Positions 21,571 through 48,756 of a stretch of 64,000 nt of DNA are shown piece after piece. The translations under genes were made by a program, and so were the position numbers. The notes beneath the pieces are model-generated. The model made no database searches. It worked only from the letters and a program-made list of their open reading frames with translations, and was not told where the DNA came from. Origin of the DNA: Candidatus Latescibacterota bacterium (lineage in GTDB: Bacteria > Latescibacterota > UBA2968 > UBA8231); contig OZ252098.1 of assembly GCA_965248355.1 (NCBI GenBank), positions 1,390,098 to 1,454,097 on the forward strand, in the 5' to 3' direction. Each line of letters begins with the position of its first letter. The first letter of the stretch is position 1.

Positions 21571-22749
21571 CTGCTAGTGTCATGTCGTAGAAATTACTGT
21601 ACATCTTCATGAGGATGCTGTAGGTTTCTCTTATTCTCTTTCCGAAAGGAGAAACCTATGGCGAGGGGACGACCGTTACCGGCGATAGAGTTGAGTCCGT
21701 CGGACCGGGACCAATTGGAATCGATGGCCAGATCACGGAGTCTCCCCCACGGGTTGGTGCGCCGAGCCGAGATGGTTCTGCTGGCCGCCGACGGCTGGCC
21801 CAATCAGGCGGTCGCCGCCGCGGTAGGGGTGACGCGGGCGACTGTGGGCAAGTGGCGGCGACGCTTTCTCGAGGGCGGGCTGCCGGGCTTGCATGATGAG
21901 CTGCGTCCGGGGGCGCCGCGATCGATCACGGATGAGCAGGTCGCCGAGGTGGTCTACAAGACCCTGAAGACCAAGCCCAAGGACGAAACCCAGTGGTCGG
22001 TGCGCTCCATGGGCCAGGAAACCGGCCTGTCCAAGGATGCGGTACATCGCATTTGGCGCACCTATGGTCTGCAACCCCACCGACACAAGCACTTCAAGCT
22101 GTCCACCGATCCCTTCTTCGTGGACAAAGTACGGGATATCGCCGGGTTGTACCTGAATCCCCCGGAGCACGCCATGGTTCTGTGCGTGGACGAGAAGAGC
22201 CAGATCCAGGCCTTGGAACGAACTCAGCCGATGCTGCCCTTGGGCTTGGGATACGTGGAAGGGGTTACGCACGACTACAAGCGGCACGGCACCACCACCC
22301 TGTTTGCCGCCTTGGACGTGGCCACCGGCGAAGTGATGACCCAGTGCAAATCCCGGCATCGTCACCAGGAATTCCTCCAGTTCCTACGCCACATCGAGAC
22401 CAACGTGCCCGAGGATCTCGATATCCATCTCGTCGTCGACAACTACGCCACCCATAAGCATGCCAAGATCAAGCGATGGCTGGCCAACCGTCCCCGGTTT
22501 CACGTTCACTACACCCCCACGTATGCTTCGTGGCTCAACCAAGTGGAGATCTGGTTCGGGATCATCACGCGCCAGGCCATTCGGCGCGGGTCGTTTCGGA
22601 AGGTCCCGGAGCTGGTCGAGCGGATCGAACGGTACACCGACAAGTGGAACGCCAAGGCCCGGCCCTTCGTCTGGACGGCGACGGCCGATTCCATCCTCGC
22701 CAAGGTCAAACGACTTTGTGAGCGAATCTCTGCGACATGACACTAGCAG
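21571..22749 (+). mobile_element. IS630/Tc1-mariner-family insertion sequence, intact
   Basis: Terminal inverted repeats 'ctgctagtgtcatgtcgtagaaatt' at 21571 match the reverse complement of 'gaatctctgcgacatgacactagcag' at 22724–22749. A single 360-aa transposase ORF lies inside. Confidence 0.7.
21658..22740 (+). CDS. IS630-family transposase (DDE_3)
   Basis: Winged-helix N-terminus, '[12 protein letters not shown]' and '[17 protein letters not shown]' DDE-region motifs. RBS 'aaaggag' upstream. Confidence 0.85.
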
Positions 22750-39379: not shown

Positions 39380-39443
39380 TTCGCGGTCCTTCGTGGTGGG
39401 TTTGGAAGCGCGCTAACCTACGAAAAGGCCCCCTACTCCGTCA

Positions 39444-39481
39444 CGGCACTTGCCGCGTTCCCCCGAGGCCCGCGATGTTTC
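39444..39481. promoter_or_regulatory. 38-bp bipartite motif R1 (CGGCACTTGCCGC–N15–GCGATGTTTC). Putative operator/FCB-type promoter (TTG...TAnnTTTG-like) upstream of the helicase gene.
   Basis: A near-palindromic 13-mer plus a conserved 10-mer at fixed spacing. The same architecture recurs at 47087–47124. Confidence 0.4.
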
Positions 39482-39543
39482 TGACCGCCGCGGGCGACCG
39501 AGAGCCCGCCGGCCGGTTCCGGTCCGAGTAGGAATGACCATCC

Positions 39544-42500
39544 ATGGAAACAGGCTCTACTCTCCCATGTCTCTCGCTGGACCTCGAGGTCGGAAAGCAG
39601 GACCGTCGCATCCATGCGTTCGCCGCGATCCGATCGGATACCGACGACCGCCTCGTCTTCAACGGCGGTAACCTCGCCGCAGAACTGGCAAGACTGGACG
39701 ATCTCGCGCACGGTGCCGACTTCCTGCTGGGCCACAACCTGGTCCTCTTCGACCTGCCGCATCTGAAAGCCGCGAAACCCAACCTCCGGCTGTTGCGGTT
39801 GCCGGCGGTGGATACGCTGTGGCTCAATCCCCTCGCCTTTCCGCGTAACCCCTATCACGGTTTGGTCAAGCATTACCAGGACGGACAACTCAAGCGAGGG
39901 CGGCTGAACGATCCCGAACTCGATGCCCGGCTCGCGCTCGACGTCTTTCGTGACCAATGGCGCGCTCTCGGCTCCGCTTCACCGGATCTCTTGCTCGCGT
40001 GGCATTGGTTGACAACGGCGGGCGATATCGGGGACGGCTTCGACAGATTCTTCTCCTCGCTGCGTGAGTCTCCCCGGCCCTCGGACGCGGAAGCCCGCGC
40101 GGCGATAGAGGGACGGTTGGCGGACAGCGCCTGCCGGACCCACGGGCGCGAGGCCACGACAGATCCGGCCCTCTTTGGCTGGGCGCTGGCCTACGCCCTC
40201 GCCTGGCTTTCGGTGGCCGGTGGCAACTCTGTCATGCCGCCGTGGGTACGCCACCAATTCCCCGAGGCGGGACGACTGGTTAGCCGGCTGCGGGATACAG
40301 CTTGTGGAGACTCCGCCTGCGTGTGGTGCCGGGAGCGGCATGACGCCCGCAGGGAACTCTCCCGCTGGTTCGGCTTCAACGGCTTCCGTCCCGAACCTTC
40401 GAGCGCGGACGGAAGCCCGATGCAGCAGTCCATCGTTGAAGCGGCGATGGCCGGGGAGCACGTCCTCGGGATCCTTCCCACCGGCACCGGAAAGTCGCTC
40501 TGCTACCAGATCCCGGCTCTTTCGCGTTACGACAAGACCGGCGCCCTTACAGTGGTGATCTCACCCCTGGTCGCGCTCATGGCGGACCAGGTGGCGGGAC
40601 TGGAAGCACACGGCATCGGGTCGTGTGTCGCCATTAACGGCCTTCTGTCCATGCCCGAGCGGGCCGATGCGCTGGACCGGGTGCGGCTCGGAGACGCCGG
40701 ACTGGTGCTCGTCTCGCCCGAGCAGCTGCGCAGCCAGTCCTTCCGCCGCGTGCTGAACCAGCGCGAGATCGGCGCCTGGGTCATGGACGAAGCCCACTGC
40801 CTGTCGCGATGGGGGCACGACTTCCGACCCGACTACCGCTACGTGGGGCGCTTCATACGCGAGAAGGCGGGATCGGGGCCTGTCCCGCCGGTGTTGTGCC
40901 TCACCGCGACCGCGAAGCCCGATGTCGTCGAGGACATCGCCCGGTACTTCCGAGACTCCATCGGAGCGGAGCTCACAGTCTTCGACGGCGGAGCCCAGCG
41001 CACGAACCTCGAGTTCGTGGTGGTTCCGACCACCGGTGGCGAAAAGTTTTCTCACATCCACCAGATCCTGATGGCTGACCTGCCCCAGGACACGCCCGGC
41101 GGTGCCATCGTCTACTGTGCGACCCGGCGTCAGACCGAAGAGGTGGCGGAGTTTCTGCAGATGAAGGAGATCGCGGCGGACCACTTCCACGCGGGTCTGC
41201 CGCCCGAGACCAAGAAGAGCGTCCAGCTACGCTTCATCGCGGGCGAGCTCCGGGTGATCGCCGCCACCAATGCCTTCGGCATGGGCATCGACAAGCCGGA
41301 CGTGCGGCTGGTGATCCACGCCGACATCCCGGGCTCGCTCGAGAACTACCTGCAGGAGGCGGGGCGCGCCGGGCGGGACCGGGAGACCGCGCGCTGTGTG
41401 CTGTTGTACTCGACGGACGACGTCGAGCGCCAGTTCGGGATGTCCGCCCGGTCGCGCCTCACGCGCCGGGAAATCCACGGCATCCTGCGGGCGCTCCGGA
41501 ACCTCGACCGGAAGAAGCGTCTGAAGGGCGAGGTGGTTGCCACCGCGGGCGAGATCCTCCTGGAGGAGGACGAGAAGGTATTCGAGCGGGACTCAGCCAC
41601 CGACGATACCCGGGTGCGGACCGCCATCGCCTGGTTGGAGGAGGCGGTGCTGCTCACCCGTGAGGAGAACGAGGTGCGGGTGTTTCCCTCGTCCCTTCGG
41701 GTGAGTTCGGTGGAAGAAGCCCGAGCCAAGATCGAGAGCTCGCCCATTGCGGACGCCTACCGCCACCAGTTCCAGCTCATCGCTGAGAAGCTGATCGACG
41801 CCGACCCGGACGAAGGCATCTCCACCGATGAGCTGATGGGCGTGTCTGGCTTGAGCCCCGAAGGTGTACGCGCCGCCCTCTACGACCTGGAGCGCCTCGG
41901 CATCGCGAGGAACGAAACGGCGCTCACCGCCTTCGTCCATACCGGGGTGGAGAGAAGCTCGCTGAAGCGTCTTGACGAGGCGGAGAGTCTTGAGAAGGCA
42001 TTGATCGAGCACCTCCGTCTTGCTGCGCCGGACATGGGTAAGGGTGAGTCCTGGGCTCTGCATTTACGAGTCGCGTCGCAGGTTCTGCGAGATGCTGGGG
42101 TTGTCGATCCTCTTCCCGAGCGGCTATGGCGCATTCTTCGCAGCATTGCCGCTGACGGCCGCGGCGAGGGGGGCGGCTCTGGGAGCCTCGGGATCCGGAA
42201 GCGCGATGCGGAGACCGTGCAGGTAACACTGCAACGCGACTGGCAAGCCCTGGAGGAGACCGCATCGCGGCGCCGTGCGGGGTCGAGACGCCTGCTGGAA
42301 CACCTGCTCGCCGGCCTGTCGCCTGGGAGCCGGGGCACGGATCTCCTGGCCGAGACCACCCTGGGAGAGCTCATGGGCGCGCTAATGTCCGACTTGCTCC
42401 TCAAGAGCAGGCTCAAGAGTCCTGAGAAACTGCTGGACCGAGCTCTCCTGTGGCTGCACGAGCAGGAGGTCATCCGCCTCCACAAGGGTCTCGCGGTCTT

Positions 42501-44748
42501 TCGCCCCGCCATGACCATCCGGCTCACGGACGAGAAGCCGGGGCGGGGATTCGCCACGGCCGACTTCGAGCCGCTCAGACTGCACTACGAGGGGCAGGTT
42601 CGGCAAATCCACGTCATGGTGGAATTCGCGCGGCGGGGTCTGGAGGCCATGGCGGAGGCGCTTCGTCTGGCCATGGAATACTTCGGCATGAACGAGGAGG
42701 AATTCCTGCACCGCTGGCTTCCGGAACGGAGTCGAGAGATCGCCCGCGAGACCACCCCGGAATCGTGGCGGACCATCGTCGAGAGCCTCAAGAACCCCGT
42801 CCAACAGCGGATCGTTGCGGATGATCGAGAGCAGACGAACGTGCTGGTTCTCGCCGGTCCTGGTTCAGGAAAAACGCGGGTGCTGGTGCATCGCATCGCC
42901 TACCTGGTGCGGGCCAGACGCGAGAATCCCCGCGGCATCCTGGCCCTTGCCTACAACCGGCACGCGGCGGTGGAAATTCGGCGGCGCATCTTGGGATTGA
43001 TCGGTGATGAAGCCCGGGGGGTGACCGTGCTCACGTGCCATGCGCTGGCCATGCGACTGGTGGGAGCCAGCTTCCAAGAGCGAGAACGGCGGCGGCTCGA
43101 CGACGATGCATTCCGGGAGGTGTTGCGCCAGGCAGTAGCACTGCTGCGCGGCGAGGGGCTGGAACCGGAGGAAGCGGACGAACAGCGAGAACGACTTCTT
43201 GCGGGCTTCCGCTGGATCCTTGTGGACGAATACCAGGACATCGCTGCGGATCAGTACGAGTTGATATCGGCCCTGGCCGGACGGACTCAGAGAGATGAGG
43301 ATCGCAAGCTCACCCTCTTTGCAGTAGGGGACGACGACCAGAACATCTACGCCTTCAATGGCGCGTCGGTCGAGTTCATCCGCCGCTTCGAAGCGGACTA
43401 CGGTCCGAAGCCCACCTACTTGACCGACAACTACCGCTCCACCGGCCACATCATCGCTGCGGCCAATGCATTGATCGAGCCGGCGCGCGAACGGATGAAG
43501 ACCGGATATCCCATCTGCATAGATCGGCCTCGTGCGAAGAACCCACCGGGCGGCGACTGGCGGGAACTGGACTCGGTCGCTCAAGGCCGTGTGCAGGTTC
43601 TACCAGCGCTACACGATCCGATCATACAAGCGCAGGTTGCGATCACGGAGTTGCAACGCCTCGCTACCCTAGCTCCCGACTGGGACTGGTCCAGGTGCGG
43701 GGTCGTCGCGCGGGAATGGAAGTACCTCGATCCGGTACGTGCATTCTGCGAAGTAAATGGTCTTCCGGTCCAGATGGGAAACGAAGACATCCCGAGCTTC
43801 TGGCTCCTGCGAGACACCCGGACGATGGTCGAATGGCTGCGTGGACGGGATACCTCCTTGGTGAACAGCCCCGACCTCCGTGATTGGGTGAATGCACGTC
43901 CTTCAGGACCCTGGGTCGAGCTTCTTCAGGAGGCTCTGGATGAACATGAGCTTGAAACCGGAGCAGGTGCGGAAGTGAGGGTGGACCCCTTCATCGAGTG
44001 GCTGGCCGAGTGGGGCCGGGAACTTCGTCGCCGCCAGCGCGGGCTCCTGCTGTTGACCGCACATCGCGCCAAGGGATTGGAGTTCGACCACGCGGCCGTG
44101 CTTGACGGAGGCTGGAACAAGATCGACGTCGACAAGGGGGAGGACGAGGACGCGCCAAGACGGCTCTACTACGTGGCCATGACCCGCGCCCGGAAGACCC
44201 TTGCTCTGATTCGATTTCCCGGGCCGCATCGGCTGCTTGATGAATTGCAGGGCAATCCCTCGGTGCTGCAACGAGACGCCGGGTGGCCTGACTTCGCGAG
44301 GGAACCTGAGGCCCCGGCGTATTCGGGGCGATCACGCCCGCACCACGCCCCTGGCGGCTTGCTGCCGGAAACCCTGGAACTCGCGCGTCAATATCGACGG
44401 CCGGGCCTGCGCAGGGTCGATCTGGGATTCGCGGGGCGTCTTCGGCCCAACCATCCGGTGCATCGTGCGATCTCCGCCCTGTCGTCCGGCGATAAGCTGG
44501 AGACACGCGTGACCGAGGCGGGACGTTGGGAATTGCTCGACCTCTCAGGAAGGGTGGTGGGGCGCCTTGCCCGTGACTTCAAACCCCCACCGGGAACGCA
44601 GTGCAGGTCCGCAACAGTTCTGGCCATCATGTCCTGGAGCCGTGACCTGTCGGACTCAAAATACCACGACAGCATACCGTGCGATTCCTGGGAGGTCGTG
44701 GTGCCGGAGTTGGTGTTCGAACCAGTGGCGAGCAACCCGGAAGGTTGA
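39544..44748 (+). CDS. Giant tri-domain nuclease-helicase: DnaQ/DEDDh 3'-5' exonuclease + RecQ-family SF2 helicase + UvrD/PcrA-family SF1 helicase (1734 aa)
   Basis: N-terminal exonuclease 'LDLEVGKQ...FLLGHNLVLFDLPHL'. RecQ motifs 'LGILPTGTGKSLCYQIPAL', 'DEAHCLSRWGHDFRPDY', 'ATNAFGMGIDKPDVRLVIH'. UvrD motifs 'VLAGPGSGKT', 'ILVDEYQD', 'YRST', 'TAHRAKGLEFD', 'YVAMTRAR'. Confidence 0.8.
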   Translation: METGSTLPCLSLDLEVGKQDRRIHAFAAIRSDTDDRLVFNGGNLAAELARLDDLAHGADFLLGHNLVLFDLPHLKAAKPNLRLLRLPAVDTLWLNPLAFPRNPYHGLVKHYQDGQLKRGRLNDPELDARLALDVFRDQWRALGSASPDLLLAWHWLTTAGDIGDGFDRFFSSLRESPRPSDAEARAAIEGRLADSACRTHGREATTDPALFGWALAYALAWLSVAGGNSVMPPWVRHQFPEAGRLVSRLRDTACGDSACVWCRERHDARRELSRWFGFNGFRPEPSSADGSPMQQSIVEAAMAGEHVLGILPTGTGKSLCYQIPALSRYDKTGALTVVISPLVALMADQVAGLEAHGIGSCVAINGLLSMPERADALDRVRLGDAGLVLVSPEQLRSQSFRRVLNQREIGAWVMDEAHCLSRWGHDFRPDYRYVGRFIREKAGSGPVPPVLCLTATAKPDVVEDIARYFRDSIGAELTVFDGGAQRTNLEFVVVPTTGGEKFSHIHQILMADLPQDTPGGAIVYCATRRQTEEVAEFLQMKEIAADHFHAGLPPETKKSVQLRFIAGELRVIAATNAFGMGIDKPDVRLVIHADIPGSLENYLQEAGRAGRDRETARCVLLYSTDDVERQFGMSARSRLTRREIHGILRALRNLDRKKRLKGEVVATAGEILLEEDEKVFERDSATDDTRVRTAIAWLEEAVLLTREENEVRVFPSSLRVSSVEEARAKIESSPIADAYRHQFQLIAEKLIDADPDEGISTDELMGVSGLSPEGVRAALYDLERLGIARNETALTAFVHTGVERSSLKRLDEAESLEKALIEHLRLAAPDMGKGESWALHLRVASQVLRDAGVVDPLPERLWRILRSIAADGRGEGGGSGSLGIRKRDAETVQVTLQRDWQALEETASRRRAGSRRLLEHLLAGLSPGSRGTDLLAETTLGELMGALMSDLLLKSRLKSPEKLLDRALLWLHEQEVIRLHKGLAVFRPAMTIRLTDEKPGRGFATADFEPLRLHYEGQVRQIHVMVEFARRGLEAMAEALRLAMEYFGMNEEEFLHRWLPERSREIARETTPESWRTIVESLKNPVQQRIVADDREQTNVLVLAGPGSGKTRVLVHRIAYLVRARRENPRGILALAYNRHAAVEIRRRILGLIGDEARGVTVLTCHALAMRLVGASFQERERRRLDDDAFREVLRQAVALLRGEGLEPEEADEQRERLLAGFRWILVDEYQDIAADQYELISALAGRTQRDEDRKLTLFAVGDDDQNIYAFNGASVEFIRRFEADYGPKPTYLTDNYRSTGHIIAAANALIEPARERMKTGYPICIDRPRAKNPPGGDWRELDSVAQGRVQVLPALHDPIIQAQVAITELQRLATLAPDWDWSRCGVVAREWKYLDPVRAFCEVNGLPVQMGNEDIPSFWLLRDTRTMVEWLRGRDTSLVNSPDLRDWVNARPSGPWVELLQEALDEHELETGAGAEVRVDPFIEWLAEWGRELRRRQRGLLLLTAHRAKGLEFDHAAVLDGGWNKIDVDKGEDEDAPRRLYYVAMTRARKTLALIRFPGPHRLLDELQGNPSVLQRDAGWPDFAREPEAPAYSGRSRPHHAPGGLLPETLELARQYRRPGLRRVDLGFAGRLRPNHPVHRAISALSSGDKLETRVTEAGRWELLDLSGRVVGRLARDFKPPPGTQCRSATVLAIMSWSRDLSDSKYHDSIPCDSWEVVVPELVFEPVASNPEG

Positions 44749-44899
44749 GCAACGTCTTGCGGAACAGCTGCGGTGCCCCGGTGCCTGCGCTCGGATTCGC
44801 TCAAGCGGCGGCTGCCTCGGGGCGATTTTCCATCCGCCGCCCGCAAAGCTACCTTCCCGGCAGGCGTCTCGACCCGGCGCCGATCCCGAGGAGGCCGCC

Positions 44900-45808
44900 A
44901 TGACCATCACAGCCGACGTTCAGACCCTTCCGCAGCGCATCCTCGGCAAGACCGGCGAGCGCGTCCCCGTCCTCGGCCTCGGCTCGGCCTGCGGAGGACT
45001 GGGCCTGGGCGACGCCGAGGCGATCGAGCTCTACGAGAAGGCCATCGACCGCGGCGTCACCTACATCGACACCGCCCCGGGCTACGAGCGCGCCCAGCGG
45101 CAGCTCGGACACGTGGTGCCCCGCCGCCGCGACGAGCTCTTCCTGGTCACCAAGTCGCCCACCGCCGACGGCGCCGAGGCCGTGCGCCTGCTGGAGCAGA
45201 ACCTGCGCGATCTCGGCACCGACGCCGTGGACCTGTGCTACGTCCACTCCCTGGGCAACTACGACGTCGACCAGGTCCTGGCCCCCGACGGCGCCCTCGC
45301 CGGTTTGCGAGAAGCCCAGAGGCGGGGGCTGACCCGCTACGTCGGCTTCACCGCACATCACAAGACCGGAAGCTCGGAGCGCGTCCTCCGGGAGGCGGAG
45401 GTCGACGTCATCATGGTGGCCCTCAACTTCGTCGACCACCACACCTACGGCTTCGACCGCACCGTGCTGCCCCTGGCCGCCGAACGCAACGTCGGCGTGG
45501 CCGCCATGAAGGTCTACGGCGGCGCCGAGGCGATGGAGTACCAAACGCGGGAGGACGAGGACCAGCGCCCCTCCGCCCTGGAGGCCAGCGCCCCCGCCTT
45601 CGATCACGAACGCGCCCTGCGCTGGGCCCTCGGCCTGCCGGGCGTCAACGTCGCCGTGGTCGGCATGTACTCCGAGGAGGAGCTGGACCGCAACATCGAG
45701 TGGGCCCGCCGCTGGCAGCCGCTGACAGCGGAGGAGGAGGCGCAACTGCTGGAGGAAGGCCGGCGTATCGCCCGCTCCTGGGGCGACCACTACGGGGATA
45801 CCACATGA
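44900..45808 (+). CDS. Aldo/keto reductase-family oxidoreductase
   Basis: 'RILGKTGERVPVLGLGS...' with strong SD 'GAGGAGG' upstream. AKR-like 'IDTAPGY', 'HHKTG'. Confidence 0.7.
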   Translation: MTITADVQTLPQRILGKTGERVPVLGLGSACGGLGLGDAEAIELYEKAIDRGVTYIDTAPGYERAQRQLGHVVPRRRDELFLVTKSPTADGAEAVRLLEQNLRDLGTDAVDLCYVHSLGNYDVDQVLAPDGALAGLREAQRRGLTRYVGFTAHHKTGSSERVLREAEVDVIMVALNFVDHHTYGFDRTVLPLAAERNVGVAAMKVYGGAEAMEYQTREDEDQRPSALEASAPAFDHERALRWALGLPGVNVAVVGMYSEEELDRNIEWARRWQPLTAEEEAQLLEEGRRIARSWGDHYGDTT

Positions 45809-46755
45809 CAACGCCCAAGGGCCAAACAGAACACGCACTGATCGGCGAAGTCGAAAAGCTGATCGATGAAGGAGCGCGGCTCTACGAGAAGGAAACGGAG
45901 GAGTTTCCCCGCCTCCACTTCGACCGGCATCTCTACCAGCCCCTGTTGGTTGAGAAGAGCGACAAGGTAAAGACGGCGCCCCCGGCGTTGAACCAGAGCG
46001 AACAGCGGTTCGTGAAGGATCTGAAAGCCCACTGGAAAGCCGAACGCGACCGATCCCTCGCCGGGATGGAACTGTTCCTCCTGCGGAATCTGAGCCGTGG
46101 GGTCGGCGTTGGCTTCTTTGAGACAAGAGGCTTCTATCCTGACTTCATCCTCTGGATCAAGAAGGGGGAGCAACAGCACATCGTCTTTGTGGAGCCGCAC
46201 GGAATGATCCACGCAGAAGCATACCAGCACGACGACAGGGCCCGGCTTCACGAAAGGCTGGCGGAGTTGACAAGGGAACTCGGCAATGAGAATGTGACCT
46301 TGGACTCCTACATCATTTCCGCAACTCGTTACGACGACCTTCGCAAGAGGTACGACGACGGTTCATGGGACATGGAGAGATTTGCAGGGGCGCATATTCT
46401 GTTTGCGGAAGACTGCTACATCAAGAGGATCTTTCAGGGAGTTTGCCAGGCAAGGCTGCACTTCCCTGAAGACAGAATCGCCGAATTCTGCCGGCGCCAT
46501 CACATCCGGCGCATGGCCCTGTTCGGCTCGGTTCTCCGCGACGACTTCACCTCCGAAAGCGACGTCGATGTGCTGGTGGAGTTCGCGCCCGGCCAAACGC
46601 CGGGACTGGCCTTCATCACCATTCAGGACGAGTTGTCGGAGATATTCGGCCAGCGAGTGGATCTGCACACCTTCAGCGGAATCGAGGGAAGCCGGAACCG
46701 GTTGCTTCGGGAGGAGATTCTCAAGTCTGCGGAGATTCGGTATGAGCAGGCGTGA
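45805..46755 (+). CDS. Fusion of an uncharacterised N-terminal domain (about 200 aa) with a C-terminal MntA-type minimal nucleotidyltransferase (antitoxin-like)
   Basis: C-terminal 'RRMALFGSVLRDDFTSESDVDVLVEF' MNT signature (GS...D.D). The N-terminal part has no recognised motif. ATGA overlap with the AKR stop. Confidence 0.6.
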   Translation: MTTPKGQTEHALIGEVEKLIDEGARLYEKETEEFPRLHFDRHLYQPLLVEKSDKVKTAPPALNQSEQRFVKDLKAHWKAERDRSLAGMELFLLRNLSRGVGVGFFETRGFYPDFILWIKKGEQQHIVFVEPHGMIHAEAYQHDDRARLHERLAELTRELGNENVTLDSYIISATRYDDLRKRYDDGSWDMERFAGAHILFAEDCYIKRIFQGVCQARLHFPEDRIAEFCRRHHIRRMALFGSVLRDDFTSESDVDVLVEFAPGQTPGLAFITIQDELSEIFGQRVDLHTFSGIEGSRNRLLREEILKSAEIRYEQA

Positions 46756-47086
46756 TGACCGGGTAAGCCTGGTCGATATGCTCATCTACGCCAGGGAAGC
46801 CGTCGCCTTGTCCGGGCAGAAAAGTCTGAAGGACCTGGAAAAGGATCGGGTTGTTCAGCTCGCCCTGCAGAAACTGGTGGAGATTGTCGGCGAAGCGGCC
46901 AATCGCGTTTCCCAGGAGACACAGCAAGGTCATCTGGAAATCCCTTGGCCCCAAATCATCGGAATGCGCAACCGCCTGGTTCACGGCTACGATGAGGTCA
47001 ATCTCGAGATCCTGTGGAAGATTGTTGAGACTGACTTCCCTCCACTCATCCAGCAACTGGAAGAGATCGTTGGAGACGAGCCATAG
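46742..47086 (+). CDS. hepT: HepT-like HEPN (DUF86) toxin
   Basis: 'RNRLVHGYDEVNLEILWKIV' R-x4-6-H HEPN motif. Overlaps the MNT gene by 14 bp. Confidence 0.7.
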   Translation: MSRRDDRVSLVDMLIYAREAVALSGQKSLKDLEKDRVVQLALQKLVEIVGEAANRVSQETQQGHLEIPWPQIIGMRNRLVHGYDEVNLEILWKIVETDFPPLIQQLEEIVGDEP

Positions 47087-47124
47087 CGGCACTTGCCGCC
47101 CCGGACCGGGGGCGGCGATGTTTC
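47087..47124. promoter_or_regulatory. 38-bp bipartite motif R2 (copy of R1 architecture) immediately after hepT
   Basis: 'cggcacttgccgc' + 15 nt + 'gcgatgtttc', identical in spacing to R1. Confidence 0.4.
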
Positions 47125-47139
47125 GGGCGAGGGCGATCC

Positions 47140-47594
47140 TACCACCACAAGACCGGAAGCCGGAACGCGTCCTCCGGGAGGCGCAGGTCGACGTCATCAT
47201 CGTAACCCTCAACTTCGACGACCACCACACCTACGGCTTCGACCGCACCGTGCTGCCCCTGGCGGCGGAGCGCAACGTCGGCGTGGCGGCCATGAAGGTC
47301 TACGGCGGCGCCGAGGCGATGGAGTACCGCACCGGTGAGGACGAGGACGGGCGCCCCTCCGCCCTGGAGGCAAACGCGCGGGACTTCGACCACGAGAGAG
47401 CCTTCCGCTGGGCCCTCGGCCTGCTTGGCGTCGGGGTCGCCGTGATCGGCATGTACTCGGAGAAGGAGCTGGACCACAACATCGAGTGGGCCCGCCGCTG
47501 GCAGCCGCTCACGGCGGAGGAGGAGGCGCAATTGCTGGAGGAGGGCCGGCGCATCGCCCGCTCCTGGGGCGACCACTACGGGGACCTGCTGTGA
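47140..47594 (+). pseudogene. Orphan, roughly 90%-identical duplicate of the 3' 455 bp of the AKR gene (45353–45808)
   Basis: Nucleotide and protein alignment: 'RVLREAQVDVIIVTLNFDDHHTYGFDRTVLPLAAERNVGVAAMKVYGGAEAMEY...' vs copy 1 '...REAEVDVIMVALNFVDHHTYGFDRTVLPLAAERNVGVAAMKVYGGAEAMEY...'. No 5' half. Confidence 0.7.
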
Positions 47595-47836
47595 CCCTCT
47601 CCGCTTTGCGGCGGGAGCCGCCCGAGGGCCGCGCCGACTTCGTCAGGGAGATCGCCGACGACGTGAGCCGGCGCATCCGCGAGGGCCTCGTGGCCGAGGC
47701 CGAGGCCCGGGAGTTGGCCGCGGGTCTGCGCTTTCAGGCGGGACTGCTGCTGCCGGGCCGCCTGGAGGCGTTCGACCGCATCTACGGCTCCCGCTTCGAG
47801 CGCCTGATCCGCCAGTTCCTGCGCGGGGAGAGCTGA
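47591..47836 (+). CDS. Hypothetical small protein (GTG start overlapping the AKR-fragment stop)
   Basis: 81-aa ORF with coding-like codon bias. No motif. Confidence 0.3.
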   Translation: MTLSALRREPPEGRADFVREIADDVSRRIREGLVAEAEARELAAGLRFQAGLLLPGRLEAFDRIYGSRFERLIRQFLRGES

Positions 47837-47964: not shown

Positions 47965-48756
47965 CTACGGTAACAGAACTGGCTTCAGATCAAACCTGTT
48001 CCCATCGGTGCTCATTTGATAGAGTGGTATATCGGGCATTTCCTTGAGAAGAGCAAGAACCGTCTCGATGTCTGAACGGGAAGCACGTATACCGAAGGTG
48101 ATGGACCGTACGCGTGCATCCGTACTCTTTTCACGGACGAGTTCTCCGGGCTCTTTTGAAAAGAAAACTAGCCGCCACTCAAGCTCGTACCTCCAGCACG
48201 GAGCTTTCGTGTACAGAATCTTATTCATGAAGCCCACAGGGTCTTCAAAGAAACTGAGATCCTCGGTTATTGGACGCCTGTTACTGTATTCGACCCTCCT
48301 GCATGCACTTCCTCCCAGGTCGTTGTTGGGCGTGCGTTCGTATTCGATACAGATACCCCTGTGGTTGTCGGCGTAGTGAGACCACATAAGCACTTCGAAC
48401 GGCGTAGCACTGAGCGAAGCAACACCACAAGTCCGTATTGCTTCCTGCATCCACGAGAGGGCTTCAATCATCTTCTGTCTCTCGTCATGCACATTGTCAA
48501 CGGTGTAGTTCTCCGGTTCGCCCTTGGATCGTGCGCATTCGTTCAAGTGGGCGGCAATGTCCGCGTCCGAAAATGAAGGCTTGAAGACAGAAAGTGTATC
48601 AAAGGGATCATTGAATGAGCGGGGCTTGGCGAGCCAGAGAATCCCTTTGACCAAGCTCGATATGGAATGTTTGTCAATGGGGCAGTACCTAAACAGTGAA
48701 GTAGGGTTGTCCGAAGAGATTTCCTCTCTTGAAATCAAGACTGCATTCCTCCTCAA
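47965..48756 (-). CDS. DUF2971-family protein (low-GC)
   Basis: 'LMWSHYADNHRGICIEY' DUF2971 signature. GC is about 50% against a 70% background. Confidence 0.5.
   Translation of the reverse strand: MRRNAVLISREEISSDNPTSLFRYCPIDKHSISSLVKGILWLAKPRSFNDPFDTLSVFKPSFSDADIAAHLNECARSKGEPENYTVDNVHDERQKMIEALSWMQEAIRTCGVASLSATPFEVLMWSHYADNHRGICIEYERTPNNDLGGSACRRVEYSNRRPITEDLSFFEDPVGFMNKILYTKAPCWRYELEWRLVFFSKEPGELVREKSTDARVRSITFGIRASRSDIETVLALLKEMPDIPLYQMSTDGNRFDLKPVLLP

What the first reader, a model, noticed from the sequence alone, without database searches (positions are those of the whole stretch)
45353..47594. TA cassette (novel-domain–MntA fusion + HepT) integrated by a Campbell-like event with a roughly 455-bp homeologous duplication of the AKR 3' end
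The AKR gene's last roughly 455 bp (45353–45808) recur at about 90% identity at 47140–47594 with no 5' half. Between the copies lie a 316-aa protein, whose C-terminus is a minimal nucleotidyltransferase fused to an uncharacterised 200-aa N-terminal domain, HepT (HEPN), and repeat R2. Two diverged copies of one gene segment flanking cargo is the footprint of single-crossover integration of a circular element carrying a partial AKR homologue. The MntA-fusion partner domain is unrecognised and may be a sensor or accessory module.
Basis: seen in the sequence. Interest (0 to 1): 0.6.

Follow-up and report, generated by a model that had tools for sequence, protein, structure and literature searches.

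The report
Toxin-antitoxin pair between duplicated reductase genes
An ordinary MntA/HepT toxin-antitoxin pair sits between a working aldo-keto reductase gene and a decaying second copy of it, and the "new domain" on the antitoxin is a captured tail of a restriction-enzyme gene, so the locus is a good case of genome tinkering, not a new system.

Summary
Window 45355-45798 recurs at 47141-47584 (89.8% identity), and a 316-aa ORF plus an intact HepT lie between the copies.

The interpretation mostly fails.

(1) The "uncharacterised N-domain" is the last ~200 residues of a type III-like restriction Res subunit (74% identical to Res C-termini, restriction-endonuclease fold). Relative to the Gemmatimonadaceae relative L010, it is an exact 612-bp (204-codon) in-frame extra piece at the 5' end of mntA. 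No protein among 1.84 billion representatives combines these two parts. L010 keeps only a 9-nt remnant, and the closest relatives lack it.

(2) AKR1 - mntA/hepT - AKR2 - orf81 occurs in five other independent assemblies. There AKR2 keeps its own ribosome-binding site and start codon (L008) or is truncated at other points (L011, L010), and L091 has a full-length gene of the AKR2 type. The window's fragment evolves neutrally (15 nonsynonymous to 9 synonymous private changes). The missing 5' half is therefore a later deletion, not the edge of a circular element. L010 carries two [TA-hairpin-AKR] units, which fits tandem segmental duplication.

The pair keeps GSX10DXD and RX4HXY. Verdict: known type VII system at a variable hot spot. 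Interest low to moderate.

The parts
44900..45808 (+). AKR1: intact 302-aa aldo/keto reductase gene. Its 3' 444 bp (45355-45798) are repeat copy 1.
   Evidence: PF00248 E 4e-26. 97% aa identity to L092 and L008 AKR1. Private substitutions are almost all at third codon positions.
45805..46755 (+). Chimeric mntA ORF (316 aa). Its ATG overlaps the AKR1 stop (ATGA), and its 3' end overlaps hepT by 14 nt.
   Evidence: PF01909 at aa 224-299. GSX10DXD motif at aa 241-255.
45805..45816 (+). Native cassette start codons (MTTP), shared with relatives that lack the res piece.
   Evidence: The same ATGACAA[C/A]GCCCA follows AKR1 in L008, L092, L006, L011 and L010.
45817..46437 (+). Captured 3' fragment of a type III-like restriction res gene (C-terminal restriction-endonuclease-fold domain, lacking roughly the last 7 codons and the stop). 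Bases 45826-46437 (612 bp, 204 codons) are an exact in-frame extra relative to L010.
46438..46755 (+). Remnant of the cassette leader (GGAGTTTGCCAGGCAAGG; own Shine-Dalgarno and start codon lost) followed by the MntA nucleotidyltransferase core.
   Evidence: 76% aa identity to L002 MntA. 92-96% nt identity to mntA of L008, L092 and L010. Leader comparison.
46742..47086 (+). hepT: intact 114-aa HEPN RNase toxin gene.
   Evidence: PF01934 E 3e-24. RX4HXY motif = RNRLVHGY. 76% identical and co-linear with the 114-aa L002 HepT.
47088..47128 (+). G+C-rich hairpin (REP-like) element plus remnant of the AKR2 ribosome-binding site. This is the native upstream region of AKR2.
   Evidence: Pattern hit. 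Paralogue at 39441-39480 in the ComA-AKR1 intergenic region. The same element lies upstream of AKR1 or AKR2 in L008, L010, L011 and L092. MFE -27.8 kcal/mol, z -1.6.
47141..47594 (+). AKR2 pseudogene: 3' ~150 codons of a tandem AKR paralogue (repeat copy 2). The start codon and about 152 codons are deleted, and there is a 1-bp frameshift near the 5' edge.
   Evidence: 24 private substitutions spread 7/7/10 over codon positions, 15 nonsynonymous to 9 synonymous. Same junction and 97.4% identity in L092. Different truncations in L008, L011 and L010.
47591..47836 (+). orf81: conserved small ORF whose GTG overlaps the AKR2 stop (GTGA). This is the native downstream partner of the AKR gene.
   Evidence: 85-90% aa identity and the same position in L008, L010, L011, L092 and L091. 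No Pfam or NCBIfam hit.

Best explanation
The locus is a variable chromosomal slot in a Gemmatimonadaceae lineage. A foreign, lower-G+C type VII toxin-antitoxin cassette (mntA-hepT) lies between a functional aldo/keto reductase gene (AKR1) and a decaying tandem paralogue (AKR2), which still carries the native downstream gene orf81.

Shown: AKR2 was once a complete gene with its own upstream hairpin, ribosome-binding site and start. Its 5' half was lost by lineage-specific deletions, and the window's deletion is shared with its closest relative L092.

Inferred: the AKR-TA-AKR pattern most likely arose by tandem duplication or unequal crossing-over of a [mntA-hepT-hairpin-AKR] unit. L010 still holds two such units, and L091 holds one unit with a full-length AKR.

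Shown: the 200-aa 'N-domain' is a 0.62-kb 3' fragment of a type III-like res gene, lodged in frame between the cassette's first four codons and the mntA leader. mntA's own Shine-Dalgarno sequence and start codon are gone.

Inferred: MntA can therefore only be made as a 316-aa chimera from the ATG that overlaps the AKR1 stop (translational coupling).

Inferred from family knowledge: HepT (RX4HXY) is an RNase toxin, and MntA (GSX10DXD) neutralises it by oligo-AMPylating the motif tyrosine. Because hepT is intact here, any frameshift or stop in the res passenger would unleash the toxin. That would explain why the captured fragment has stayed open. The res piece is most likely a passenger, not a functional sensor.
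For: Res identity.

Exact 612-bp in-frame extra relative to L010, and the 9-nt res remnant AAGGGCCAA kept in L010.

No fusion homologue: every one of the best 120 hits among 5.8 billion proteins covers at most 68% of the query. The best 150 of 1.84 billion representatives include no Res-C plus MntA protein.

Relatives without the res piece: L008, L092, L006 and L011.

AKR2 once full length: L008/L009 keep the ribosome-binding site, ATG and 21 codons. L091 has a full-length gene ending GDLV followed by orf81. Four different truncation points. The hairpin upstream of AKR2 is paralogous to the native AKR1 upstream region.

Neutral decay of AKR2.

Two TA-AKR units in L010, 90.8% identical TA copies.

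Intact motifs: with motif definitions from PMC7641770.

hepT independently broken in L008, L092, L010-upstream and L091 while mntA stays open in L008, L092 and L091.

TA cassette homologues sit inside mod-...-res operons. Clustering of HEPN/MNT genes with R-M operons is reported in PMC3710099.
Against: The order of events cannot be fixed. The closest relatives by flanking identity (L092, L008) lack the res piece, while the more distant L010 keeps its remnant. Inter-lineage recombination at the locus, or parallel losses, must be assumed.

In the known R-M operons the order is mntA-hepT-res, so the window's res-3'-end then mntA order is a circular permutation with no observed donor.

The res fragment shows little decay. 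It deviates at 5 of 79 conserved columns, at the top of the range seen in its homologues (up to 6.2%). dN/dS against L002 is 0.17. Continued constraint on the domain itself is therefore not excluded.

Expression, toxicity and AMPylation are untested. The NCBIfam equivalog models for MntA and HepT score below their cut-offs.
Confidence: 0.72

Rival explanations
1. One reading: a circular element carrying mntA-hepT and a partial (3' 455-bp) AKR homologue integrated by a single crossover into the chromosomal AKR, leaving full AKR - cargo - partial AKR.
For: The topology is compatible: a direct repeat of the AKR 3' end flanks lower-G+C cargo. The res-to-mntA order is a circular permutation of the operon order seen elsewhere, which hints that a circular or tandem intermediate existed at some stage.
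Against: The 5' edge of the second copy is not an element boundary. L008/L009 keep the AKR2 ribosome-binding site, ATG and 21 codons with an internal deletion at a GAGCGCGTCC microhomology. L011 and L010 are truncated elsewhere. L091 has a full-length gene of the AKR2 type. The window keeps the AKR2 upstream spacer up to the lost ATG. AKR2 groups inside the clade, at 87-90% to all copies against ~70% to outgroups, and it decays neutrally. No recombinase or replication gene lies in the cargo. L010 has a second TA unit upstream of AKR1.
Confidence: 0.06
2. The Res-C plus MntA chimera is a functional new antitoxin. The restriction-endonuclease-fold domain binds DNA or an R-M partner and couples HepT release to phage attack or to loss of restriction. 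In that case the fusion would be a 'Rosetta stone' for a Res-MntA interaction in operons where the TA sits next to res.
For: The domain is complete enough to fold (pLDDT 82). It keeps nearly all family-invariant residues, including the PD...EPH motif. Homologous TA cassettes are embedded beside res in R-M operons. PMC3710099 proposes that R-M components control the HEPN toxins linked to them.
Against: There is a single occurrence, with no fusion among billions of proteins. L010 deleted the piece precisely and kept an intact TA. The closest relatives never had it or lost it. There is no Mod and no Res motor part anywhere in the 64-kb window. Two small deletions affect the domain, and one removes a nearly invariant Y-D pair near its C-terminus.
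Confidence: 0.12
3. Independent insertions: the TA cassette targets the G+C-rich hairpin element, and the AKR copies were duplicated separately. The repeated [TA-hairpin-AKR] pattern would then reflect site preference and not duplication of the whole unit.
For: hepT always ends directly at the first base of the hairpin (TAG|CGGCAC). The hairpin also flanks other insertions: the helicase gene in the window and the ankyrin gene in L010. Two different TA alleles (58-64% aa identity) occupy the same slot in different genomes and lie in tandem in L091.
Against: No transposase or recombinase accompanies the cassette. The upstream and downstream units in L010 are homologous across TA, hairpin and AKR together.
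Confidence: 0.1

Closest known systems
Type VII HepT/MntA (HEPN/MNT) toxin-antitoxin system, e.g. Shewanella oneidensis SO_3166/SO_3165 (PMC7641770)
   Same: Gene order mntA then hepT, with overlapping ORFs. PF01909 antitoxin with GSX10DXD. PF01934 toxin with RX4HXY. Sizes of the core parts (~100 and 114 aa).
   Different: The antitoxin has lost its own start. It is read as a 316-aa chimera with a 204-codon res-gene fragment and is translationally coupled to an upstream reductase gene. The NCBIfam equivalog scores are below cut-off, so this is a divergent subfamily.
HEPN/MNT cassettes embedded in type III-like restriction-modification operons (loci L001-L005 here; association described in PMC3710099)
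   Same: MntA, HepT and the Res C-terminal piece are each 74-76% identical to the corresponding parts of these mod-mntA-hepT-res operons.
   Different: The window has no Mod and no Res motor domain. The res piece lies upstream of mntA, not downstream of hepT, and it is fused in frame.
Type III restriction enzyme Res subunit (PADLOC REase_III; proteins such as P0255, 1070 aa)
   Same: Residues 6-212 align with the last ~200 residues, which form the C-terminal PD-(D/E)xK-like endonuclease domain with the family's PD...EPH motif.
   Different: Only about 19% of the protein is present. The SF2 helicase/ATPase part is missing, so it cannot act as a restriction enzyme.
Tandem segmental duplication followed by pseudogenisation of one copy
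   Same: Direct repeats of a gene with its upstream region. One copy is under purifying selection and the other accumulates deletions and neutral substitutions. Copy number of the unit differs among relatives.
   Different: The duplicated unit includes an addictive TA cassette, and the slot shows allele replacement of that cassette.

Membership tests
[quoted passage not shown] | Toxin of the HepT/DUF86 family (PF01934) carrying RX4HXY | tested here: met
   PF01934 85 bits against a cut-off of 23.5. RNRLVHGY at aa 76-83. Motif definition from PMC7641770.
[quoted passage not shown] | Antitoxin of the minimal nucleotidyltransferase family (PF01909) carrying GSX10DXD | tested here: met
   PF01909 49 bits against a cut-off of 21. 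GSVLRDDFTSESDVD at aa 241-255 of the chimera.
[quoted passage not shown] | Adjacent, co-oriented two-gene module with the antitoxin first | tested here: met
   mntA stop at 46755, hepT ATG at 46742, 14-nt overlap.
[quoted passage not shown] | Scores above the NCBIfam equivalog cut-offs (NF047752 MntA, NF047751 HepT) | tested here: not met
   34 and 46 bits against cut-offs of 60. This is a member of the Pfam families but not of the narrow equivalog groups.
[quoted passage not shown] | HepT is toxic and is neutralised by MntA-dependent oligo-AMPylation | not testable with these tools
   Needs expression and mass-spectrometry assays.
Type III restriction-modification system (Res subunit) | C-terminal endonuclease domain | tested here: met
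Type III restriction-modification system (Res subunit) | N-terminal SF2 helicase/ATPase (ResIII) domain in the same protein | tested here: not met
   tblastn with the full-length Res P0255 and the L002 Res N-terminal part finds only aa 835-1040 in the window. Pfam finds no ResIII domain in the ORF.
Type III restriction-modification system (Res subunit) | Partner Mod methyltransferase gene nearby | tested here: not met
   No match to the L002 Mod anywhere in the 64-kb window.
Campbell-type (single-crossover) integrated circular element | Direct repeats of the homology segment flank the cargo | tested here: met
Campbell-type (single-crossover) integrated circular element | The truncated copy's inner edge is the element boundary and is the same wherever the element is found | tested here: not met
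   There are four different AKR2 5' ends. L008 keeps the start codon, the window keeps the AKR2 upstream spacer, and L091 has a full-length copy.
Campbell-type (single-crossover) integrated circular element | Element-borne replication, recombination or mobilisation functions, or an observed free circle | tested here: not met
   The cargo encodes only the chimeric MntA and HepT. A free circle cannot be tested without reads.
Tandem segmental duplication with decay of one copy | The duplicate includes the gene's native upstream region, and the unit number varies among relatives | tested here: met
   The hairpin and ribosome-binding site upstream of AKR2 are paralogous to the AKR1 upstream region. 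L010 has two TA-AKR units and L091 has one.
Tandem segmental duplication with decay of one copy | One copy evolves neutrally | tested here: met
   Window AKR2 private substitutions are 7/7/10 by codon position, 15 nonsynonymous to 9 synonymous, with a frameshift. L011 AKR2 shows 12 nonsynonymous to 5 synonymous plus indels.

The most novel reading that the evidence does not exclude
The chimera is not a passenger but a working new antitoxin. A restriction-endonuclease-fold domain taken from Res tethers MntA to DNA or to an R-M complex, so that HepT is released when restriction fails. This would be the first natural fusion pointing to a physical Res-MntA link in the many R-M operons that carry HEPN/MNT cassettes. 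A milder version: the hairpin-flanked AKR slot is a dedicated exchange site for TA and defence cassettes.
Probability: 0.1. Interest if true: 0.6.

Novelty: new member of a known kind. Interest (0 to 1): 0.28.

Why it matters
The finding removes a false lead: there is no new domain and no new integration mechanism. What remains is a small, well-documented natural series from seven related assemblies. They show one TA slot in different states: toxin intact or independently broken four times, the antitoxin start remodelled in at least four ways, a neighbouring gene copy truncated at four points, and a foreign gene fragment captured in frame.

The series illustrates two points of general interest. 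First, an intact toxin can hold open a reading frame that would otherwise decay. Second, duplicated flanking genes and hairpin elements make a hot spot for turnover of defence cargo. The window also carries a 5.4-kb helicase insertion and a DUF2971 gene at the same hot spot.

If the chimera proved functional, it would give testable evidence for cross-talk between restriction enzymes and HEPN/MNT modules.

Tried and rejected
(1) Exact look-ups of the window's AKR, chimera and HepT in the assembly index found nothing. The source genome is not in that collection.

(2) phmmer of the N-domain against PDB sequences gave only chance hits. The fold had to be predicted instead.

(3) I looked for the missing R-M parts in the low-G+C stretch at 10-23 kb. 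It holds glycosyltransferases, LRR/TPR proteins and an IS630-type transposase, but no Mod or Res. tblastn over the whole window confirmed this.

(4) The metagenome scan for the res fragment returned one locus (L090) with a full-length 1078-aa Res and no neighbouring MntA, which says nothing about the donor arrangement.

(5) I first read the first four codons (MTTP) as native AKR-downstream DNA. I gave this up when L010's upstream TA copy, which has no AKR in front of it, showed a similar start (VTTTRDIQ...).

(6) I first took 'ARLHFPED' as proof of an R-M-type mntA 5' end brought in together with res. It also matches the native type in L010-upstream, so it does not discriminate.

(7) The only two-stretch hit that looked like a fusion (P0283) is a tandem MNT-MNT protein.

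(8) The promoter and terminator scan gave nothing above the shuffle expectation.

(9) dN/dS on the res fragment (0.17) is uninformative about decay at this divergence (dS 0.77).
Full report
**1. The observation**

The repeat is present as described.
- The repeat finder lists it as the longest direct repeat in 43-50 kb: 45375-45674 vs 47161-47460, 88% identity without gaps.
- A MAFFT alignment extends it to about 45355-45798 vs 47141-47584, with one 1-bp indel near the 5' edge. Identity is 89.8% over 420 comparable sites.
- Homology ends 8 nt before the two stop codons. The full gene ends GDTT* and the fragment ends GDLL*.

The genes on the + strand are as follows.
- AKR1, 44900-45808, 302 aa, PF00248.
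- A 316-aa ORF, 45805-46755. Its ATG overlaps the AKR1 stop as ATGA.
- hepT, 46742-47086, 114 aa, PF01934.
- The AKR fragment, 47141-47594.
- An 81-aa ORF, 47591-47836, whose GTG overlaps the fragment's stop.

The region between the copies has 55-60% G+C against ~70% for both AKR copies.

**2. The "novel" N-terminal domain is the tail of a restriction enzyme gene**

Several lines identify it.
- PADLOC matches residues 37-210 to positions 946-1124 of the 1154-position type III restriction enzyme model (E 1e-14).
- The best hits among 5.8 billion proteins cover only the first ~65% of the ORF, at 55-77% identity. Where they are named, they are called "restriction endonuclease subunit R".
- An exhaustive phmmer search of 1.84 billion representatives shows that residues ~6-212 align with the last ~200 residues of ~1020-1090-aa proteins, for example aa 844-1042 of the 1070-aa P0255.
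- No Mod gene and no Res helicase part exists anywhere in the 64-kb window.

No protein in either large search combines this domain with MntA. The single two-stretch hit, P0283, is a tandem MNT-MNT protein.

**3. Where the pieces come from**

In loci L001-L005 the closest Res homologues belong to operons of the form mod - (MNT/HEPN pairs) - mntA (103 aa) - hepT (114 aa) - res. The window's MntA core, HepT and Res piece are 76%, 76% and 74% identical to the L002 proteins. All three parts therefore derive from the same kind of operon.

Clustering of HEPN/MNT genes with R-M operons is already described in PMC3710099.

The order in the window (res 3' end, then mntA, then hepT) is a circular permutation of the operon order. 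I could not find a donor with that order, and this remains unexplained.

**4. Relatives show what happened at the locus**

The AKR protein cluster, exact-protein look-ups and a scan of species-representative genomes gave seven related loci. Those that carry a taxonomic label are called Gemmatimonadaceae, except L011, whose record is labelled Latescibacterota.

*L092 and L008/L009*
- L092 is the closest relative (neighbouring membrane-protein gene 98.3% nt identical) and L008/L009 follow (94% over 8.4 kb).
- Both have AKR1 - mntA - broken hepT - hairpin - AKR2 - orf81, with no res piece.
- Their MntA (98 and 107 aa) starts at the same ATG overlapping the AKR1 stop: MTTPIEVAEF... and MTTPIETFQALLRDRVAEF...

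*L010*
- It has the sequence ...ATGACAAAGCCCAAGGGCCAA|GGAGTTGGCCAGG....
- The window has exactly 612 bp (45826-46437, 204 codons) between these same two anchors.
- The nine bases AAGGGCCAA (KGQ) are identical to the res sequence of L002, 21 nt upstream of where the rest of the homology resumes.
- L010 therefore carries a remnant of the res piece. It is best read as a precise deletion derivative of a window-like chimera, and its TA pair is intact.

*L006 and L011*
- They carry a different TA allele (58-64% aa identity) in the same slot.
- There the ATG after AKR1 opens only a 16-codon ORF, and mntA has its own Shine-Dalgarno sequence and TTG start.
- The window's GGAGTTTGCCAGGCAAGG resembles that leader but lacks the Shine-Dalgarno 3' part, the start codon and the first codons.

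The chimeric ORF is thus the product of at least two rearrangements: capture of a res fragment, and loss of mntA's own start. It is unique to this lineage.

**5. The second AKR copy was once complete**

- *L008/L009:* AKR2 keeps the upstream hairpin, GAGGAGG, the ATG and 21 codons. It then jumps to codon ~160 at a GAGCGCGTCC microhomology (KTGERV / KTGSSERV).
- *Window and L092:* they share another deletion (GCGATC|CTACCACCACAAGACC) that removes the start and ~152 codons but keeps the same upstream spacer.
- *L011:* keeps about 112 codons.
- *L010:* keeps about 25 codons.
- *L091:* has a single full-length AKR with the AKR2-type end (GDLV) followed by orf81 and preceded by two mntA genes.
- *Hairpin:* the hairpin upstream of AKR2 (47088-47121) is paralogous to the one in the native ComA-AKR1 intergenic region (39441-39480) and to those upstream of AKR1 in the relatives.

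All AKR copies of the clade are 87-97% identical to one another and ~70% identical to the outgroups.

The substitution patterns differ between copies.

| Copy | Private substitutions | Codon positions 1/2/3 | Nonsynonymous : synonymous | Other |
|---|---|---|---|---|
| Window AKR2 | 24 | 7/7/10 | 15 : 9 | 1-bp frameshift |
| L011 AKR2 | 17 | 10/1/6 | 12 : 5 | indels |
| L008 AKR2 | 7 | 1/0/6 | 0 : 7 | internal in-frame deletion |
| AKR1 copies | 3-17 each | mostly third position | mostly synonymous | intact |

dN is about twice as high on comparisons that involve the window's AKR2. The 10% divergence is therefore age plus pseudogene drift, not import of a functional homeologue.

**6. Origin of the AKR-TA-AKR pattern**

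L010 contains ComA - hairpin - ankyrin gene - [mntA with frameshifts - hepT stub] - hairpin - AKR1 - [mntA - hepT] - hairpin stub - AKR2 stub - orf81. That is two [TA-hairpin-AKR] units, and their TA parts are 90.8% identical. L091 has one such unit with a full AKR.

This fits tandem duplication or unequal crossing-over of the unit. The AKR1|cassette joint lies at GGGGA|TACCAC(ATG), inside the last three AKR codons.

A single-crossover insertion of a circle carrying a complete unit would give the same product and cannot be excluded as the first event. No recombinase, att site or replication gene is present.

**7. How it most likely works**

*Shown by sequence.* MntA keeps GSX10DXD (GSVLRDDFTSESDVD) and HepT keeps RX4HXY (RNRLVHGY). 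These are the motifs shown experimentally to mediate tri-AMPylation of the toxin's tyrosine and thereby its neutralisation (PMC7641770).

*Inferred.*
- The three genes AKR1-mntA-hepT are co-transcribed and translationally coupled, through the ATGA overlap and the 14-nt overlap.
- The nearest alternative in-frame ATGs are M190, which has no Shine-Dalgarno sequence, and M237, which would remove the first helix. The 316-aa chimera is therefore the likely product.
- hepT is broken by different deletions in L008, L092, L010-upstream and L091, while mntA remains open in L008, L092 and L091. It is intact in the window, L010-TA2 and L011.
- With an intact toxin, any stop or frameshift in the res passenger would be lethal or costly. 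That is a sufficient reason for the fragment's open frame.
- The fragment's conservation is at the edge of the family range: 5 deviations in 79 conserved columns, and two small deletions, one of which removes a nearly invariant Y-D pair. A function of its own is neither needed nor excluded.

**8. Verdict**

The TA identification is right. The Campbell mechanism and the novel domain are not supported.

The locus is a known type VII TA module in a variable, duplication-prone slot, carrying a lineage-specific in-frame capture of a res gene fragment. Novelty: a new member of a known kind. Interest is low to moderate, mainly as a clean natural series of TA decay and gene-fragment capture.

Noticed in passing
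window 39494-44874 (gene 39544-44748, +): A 5.4-kb segment encoding a 1734-aa protein lies between the ComA-side hairpin and AKR1. The protein joins a RecQ/DEAD-type helicase (best PADLOC hits DpdF and PsyrT) to a UvrD-type helicase (GajB-like). L008, L092 and L011 have less than 100 bp at this position, so the segment is an insertion of a probable defence gene at the same hot spot.
   Followed up: partly
window 47965-48756 (-): A low-G+C (50%) gene for a DUF2971 protein (PADLOC candidate system PDC-S31, E 7e-53) occupies the gap between orf81 and the 890-aa membrane protein gene. L092 has a putAbiC gene there, L010 and L011 have other unrelated genes, and L008 has no gene there (about 50 bp to the next gene). 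This is a second variable defence slot.
   Followed up: partly
window 39441-39480 and 47088-47121; also L008 8400-8500, L010 5440-5490 and 6948-6990: A G+C-rich hairpin element (GGCACTTGCCG...GGCGATGT) recurs at the edges of every variable segment in this neighbourhood. It lies three times in tandem upstream of AKR1 in L008. It may be a REP-like element that marks recombination or insertion sites.
   Followed up: partly
L001-L005 (e.g. L002 5615-8750): In the related R-M operons the res gene is called as two overlapping ORFs, split at different points (798+249 aa in L002-L005, 612+433 aa in L001). The number of MNT/HEPN pairs between mod and res also varies from locus to locus. This suggests frameshifted or phase-variable res genes and mobile TA cassettes.
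   Followed up: no
L091 294-921: Two different mntA alleles (the L006 type and the window type, 58% identical) lie in tandem with no hepT, directly upstream of a single full-length AKR. These are orphan antitoxins left after toxin loss.
   Followed up: partly
window 21658-22740 (+) within the low-G+C stretch 10-23 kb: An IS630-family transposase (DDE_3 plus HTH domains) sits at the edge of a 13-kb lower-G+C block that encodes glycosyltransferases, a transglutaminase-domain protein, and LRR/PD40 and TPR proteins. This is probably a separate horizontally acquired island.
   Followed up: no
window 45817-45850 vs L002 8070-8150: Relative to L002, the captured res fragment lacks 21 nt (YVVSIRQ) lying between two GGCCAA/GGCAA repeats. 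This is a small slippage-type deletion inside the captured piece.
   Followed up: yes
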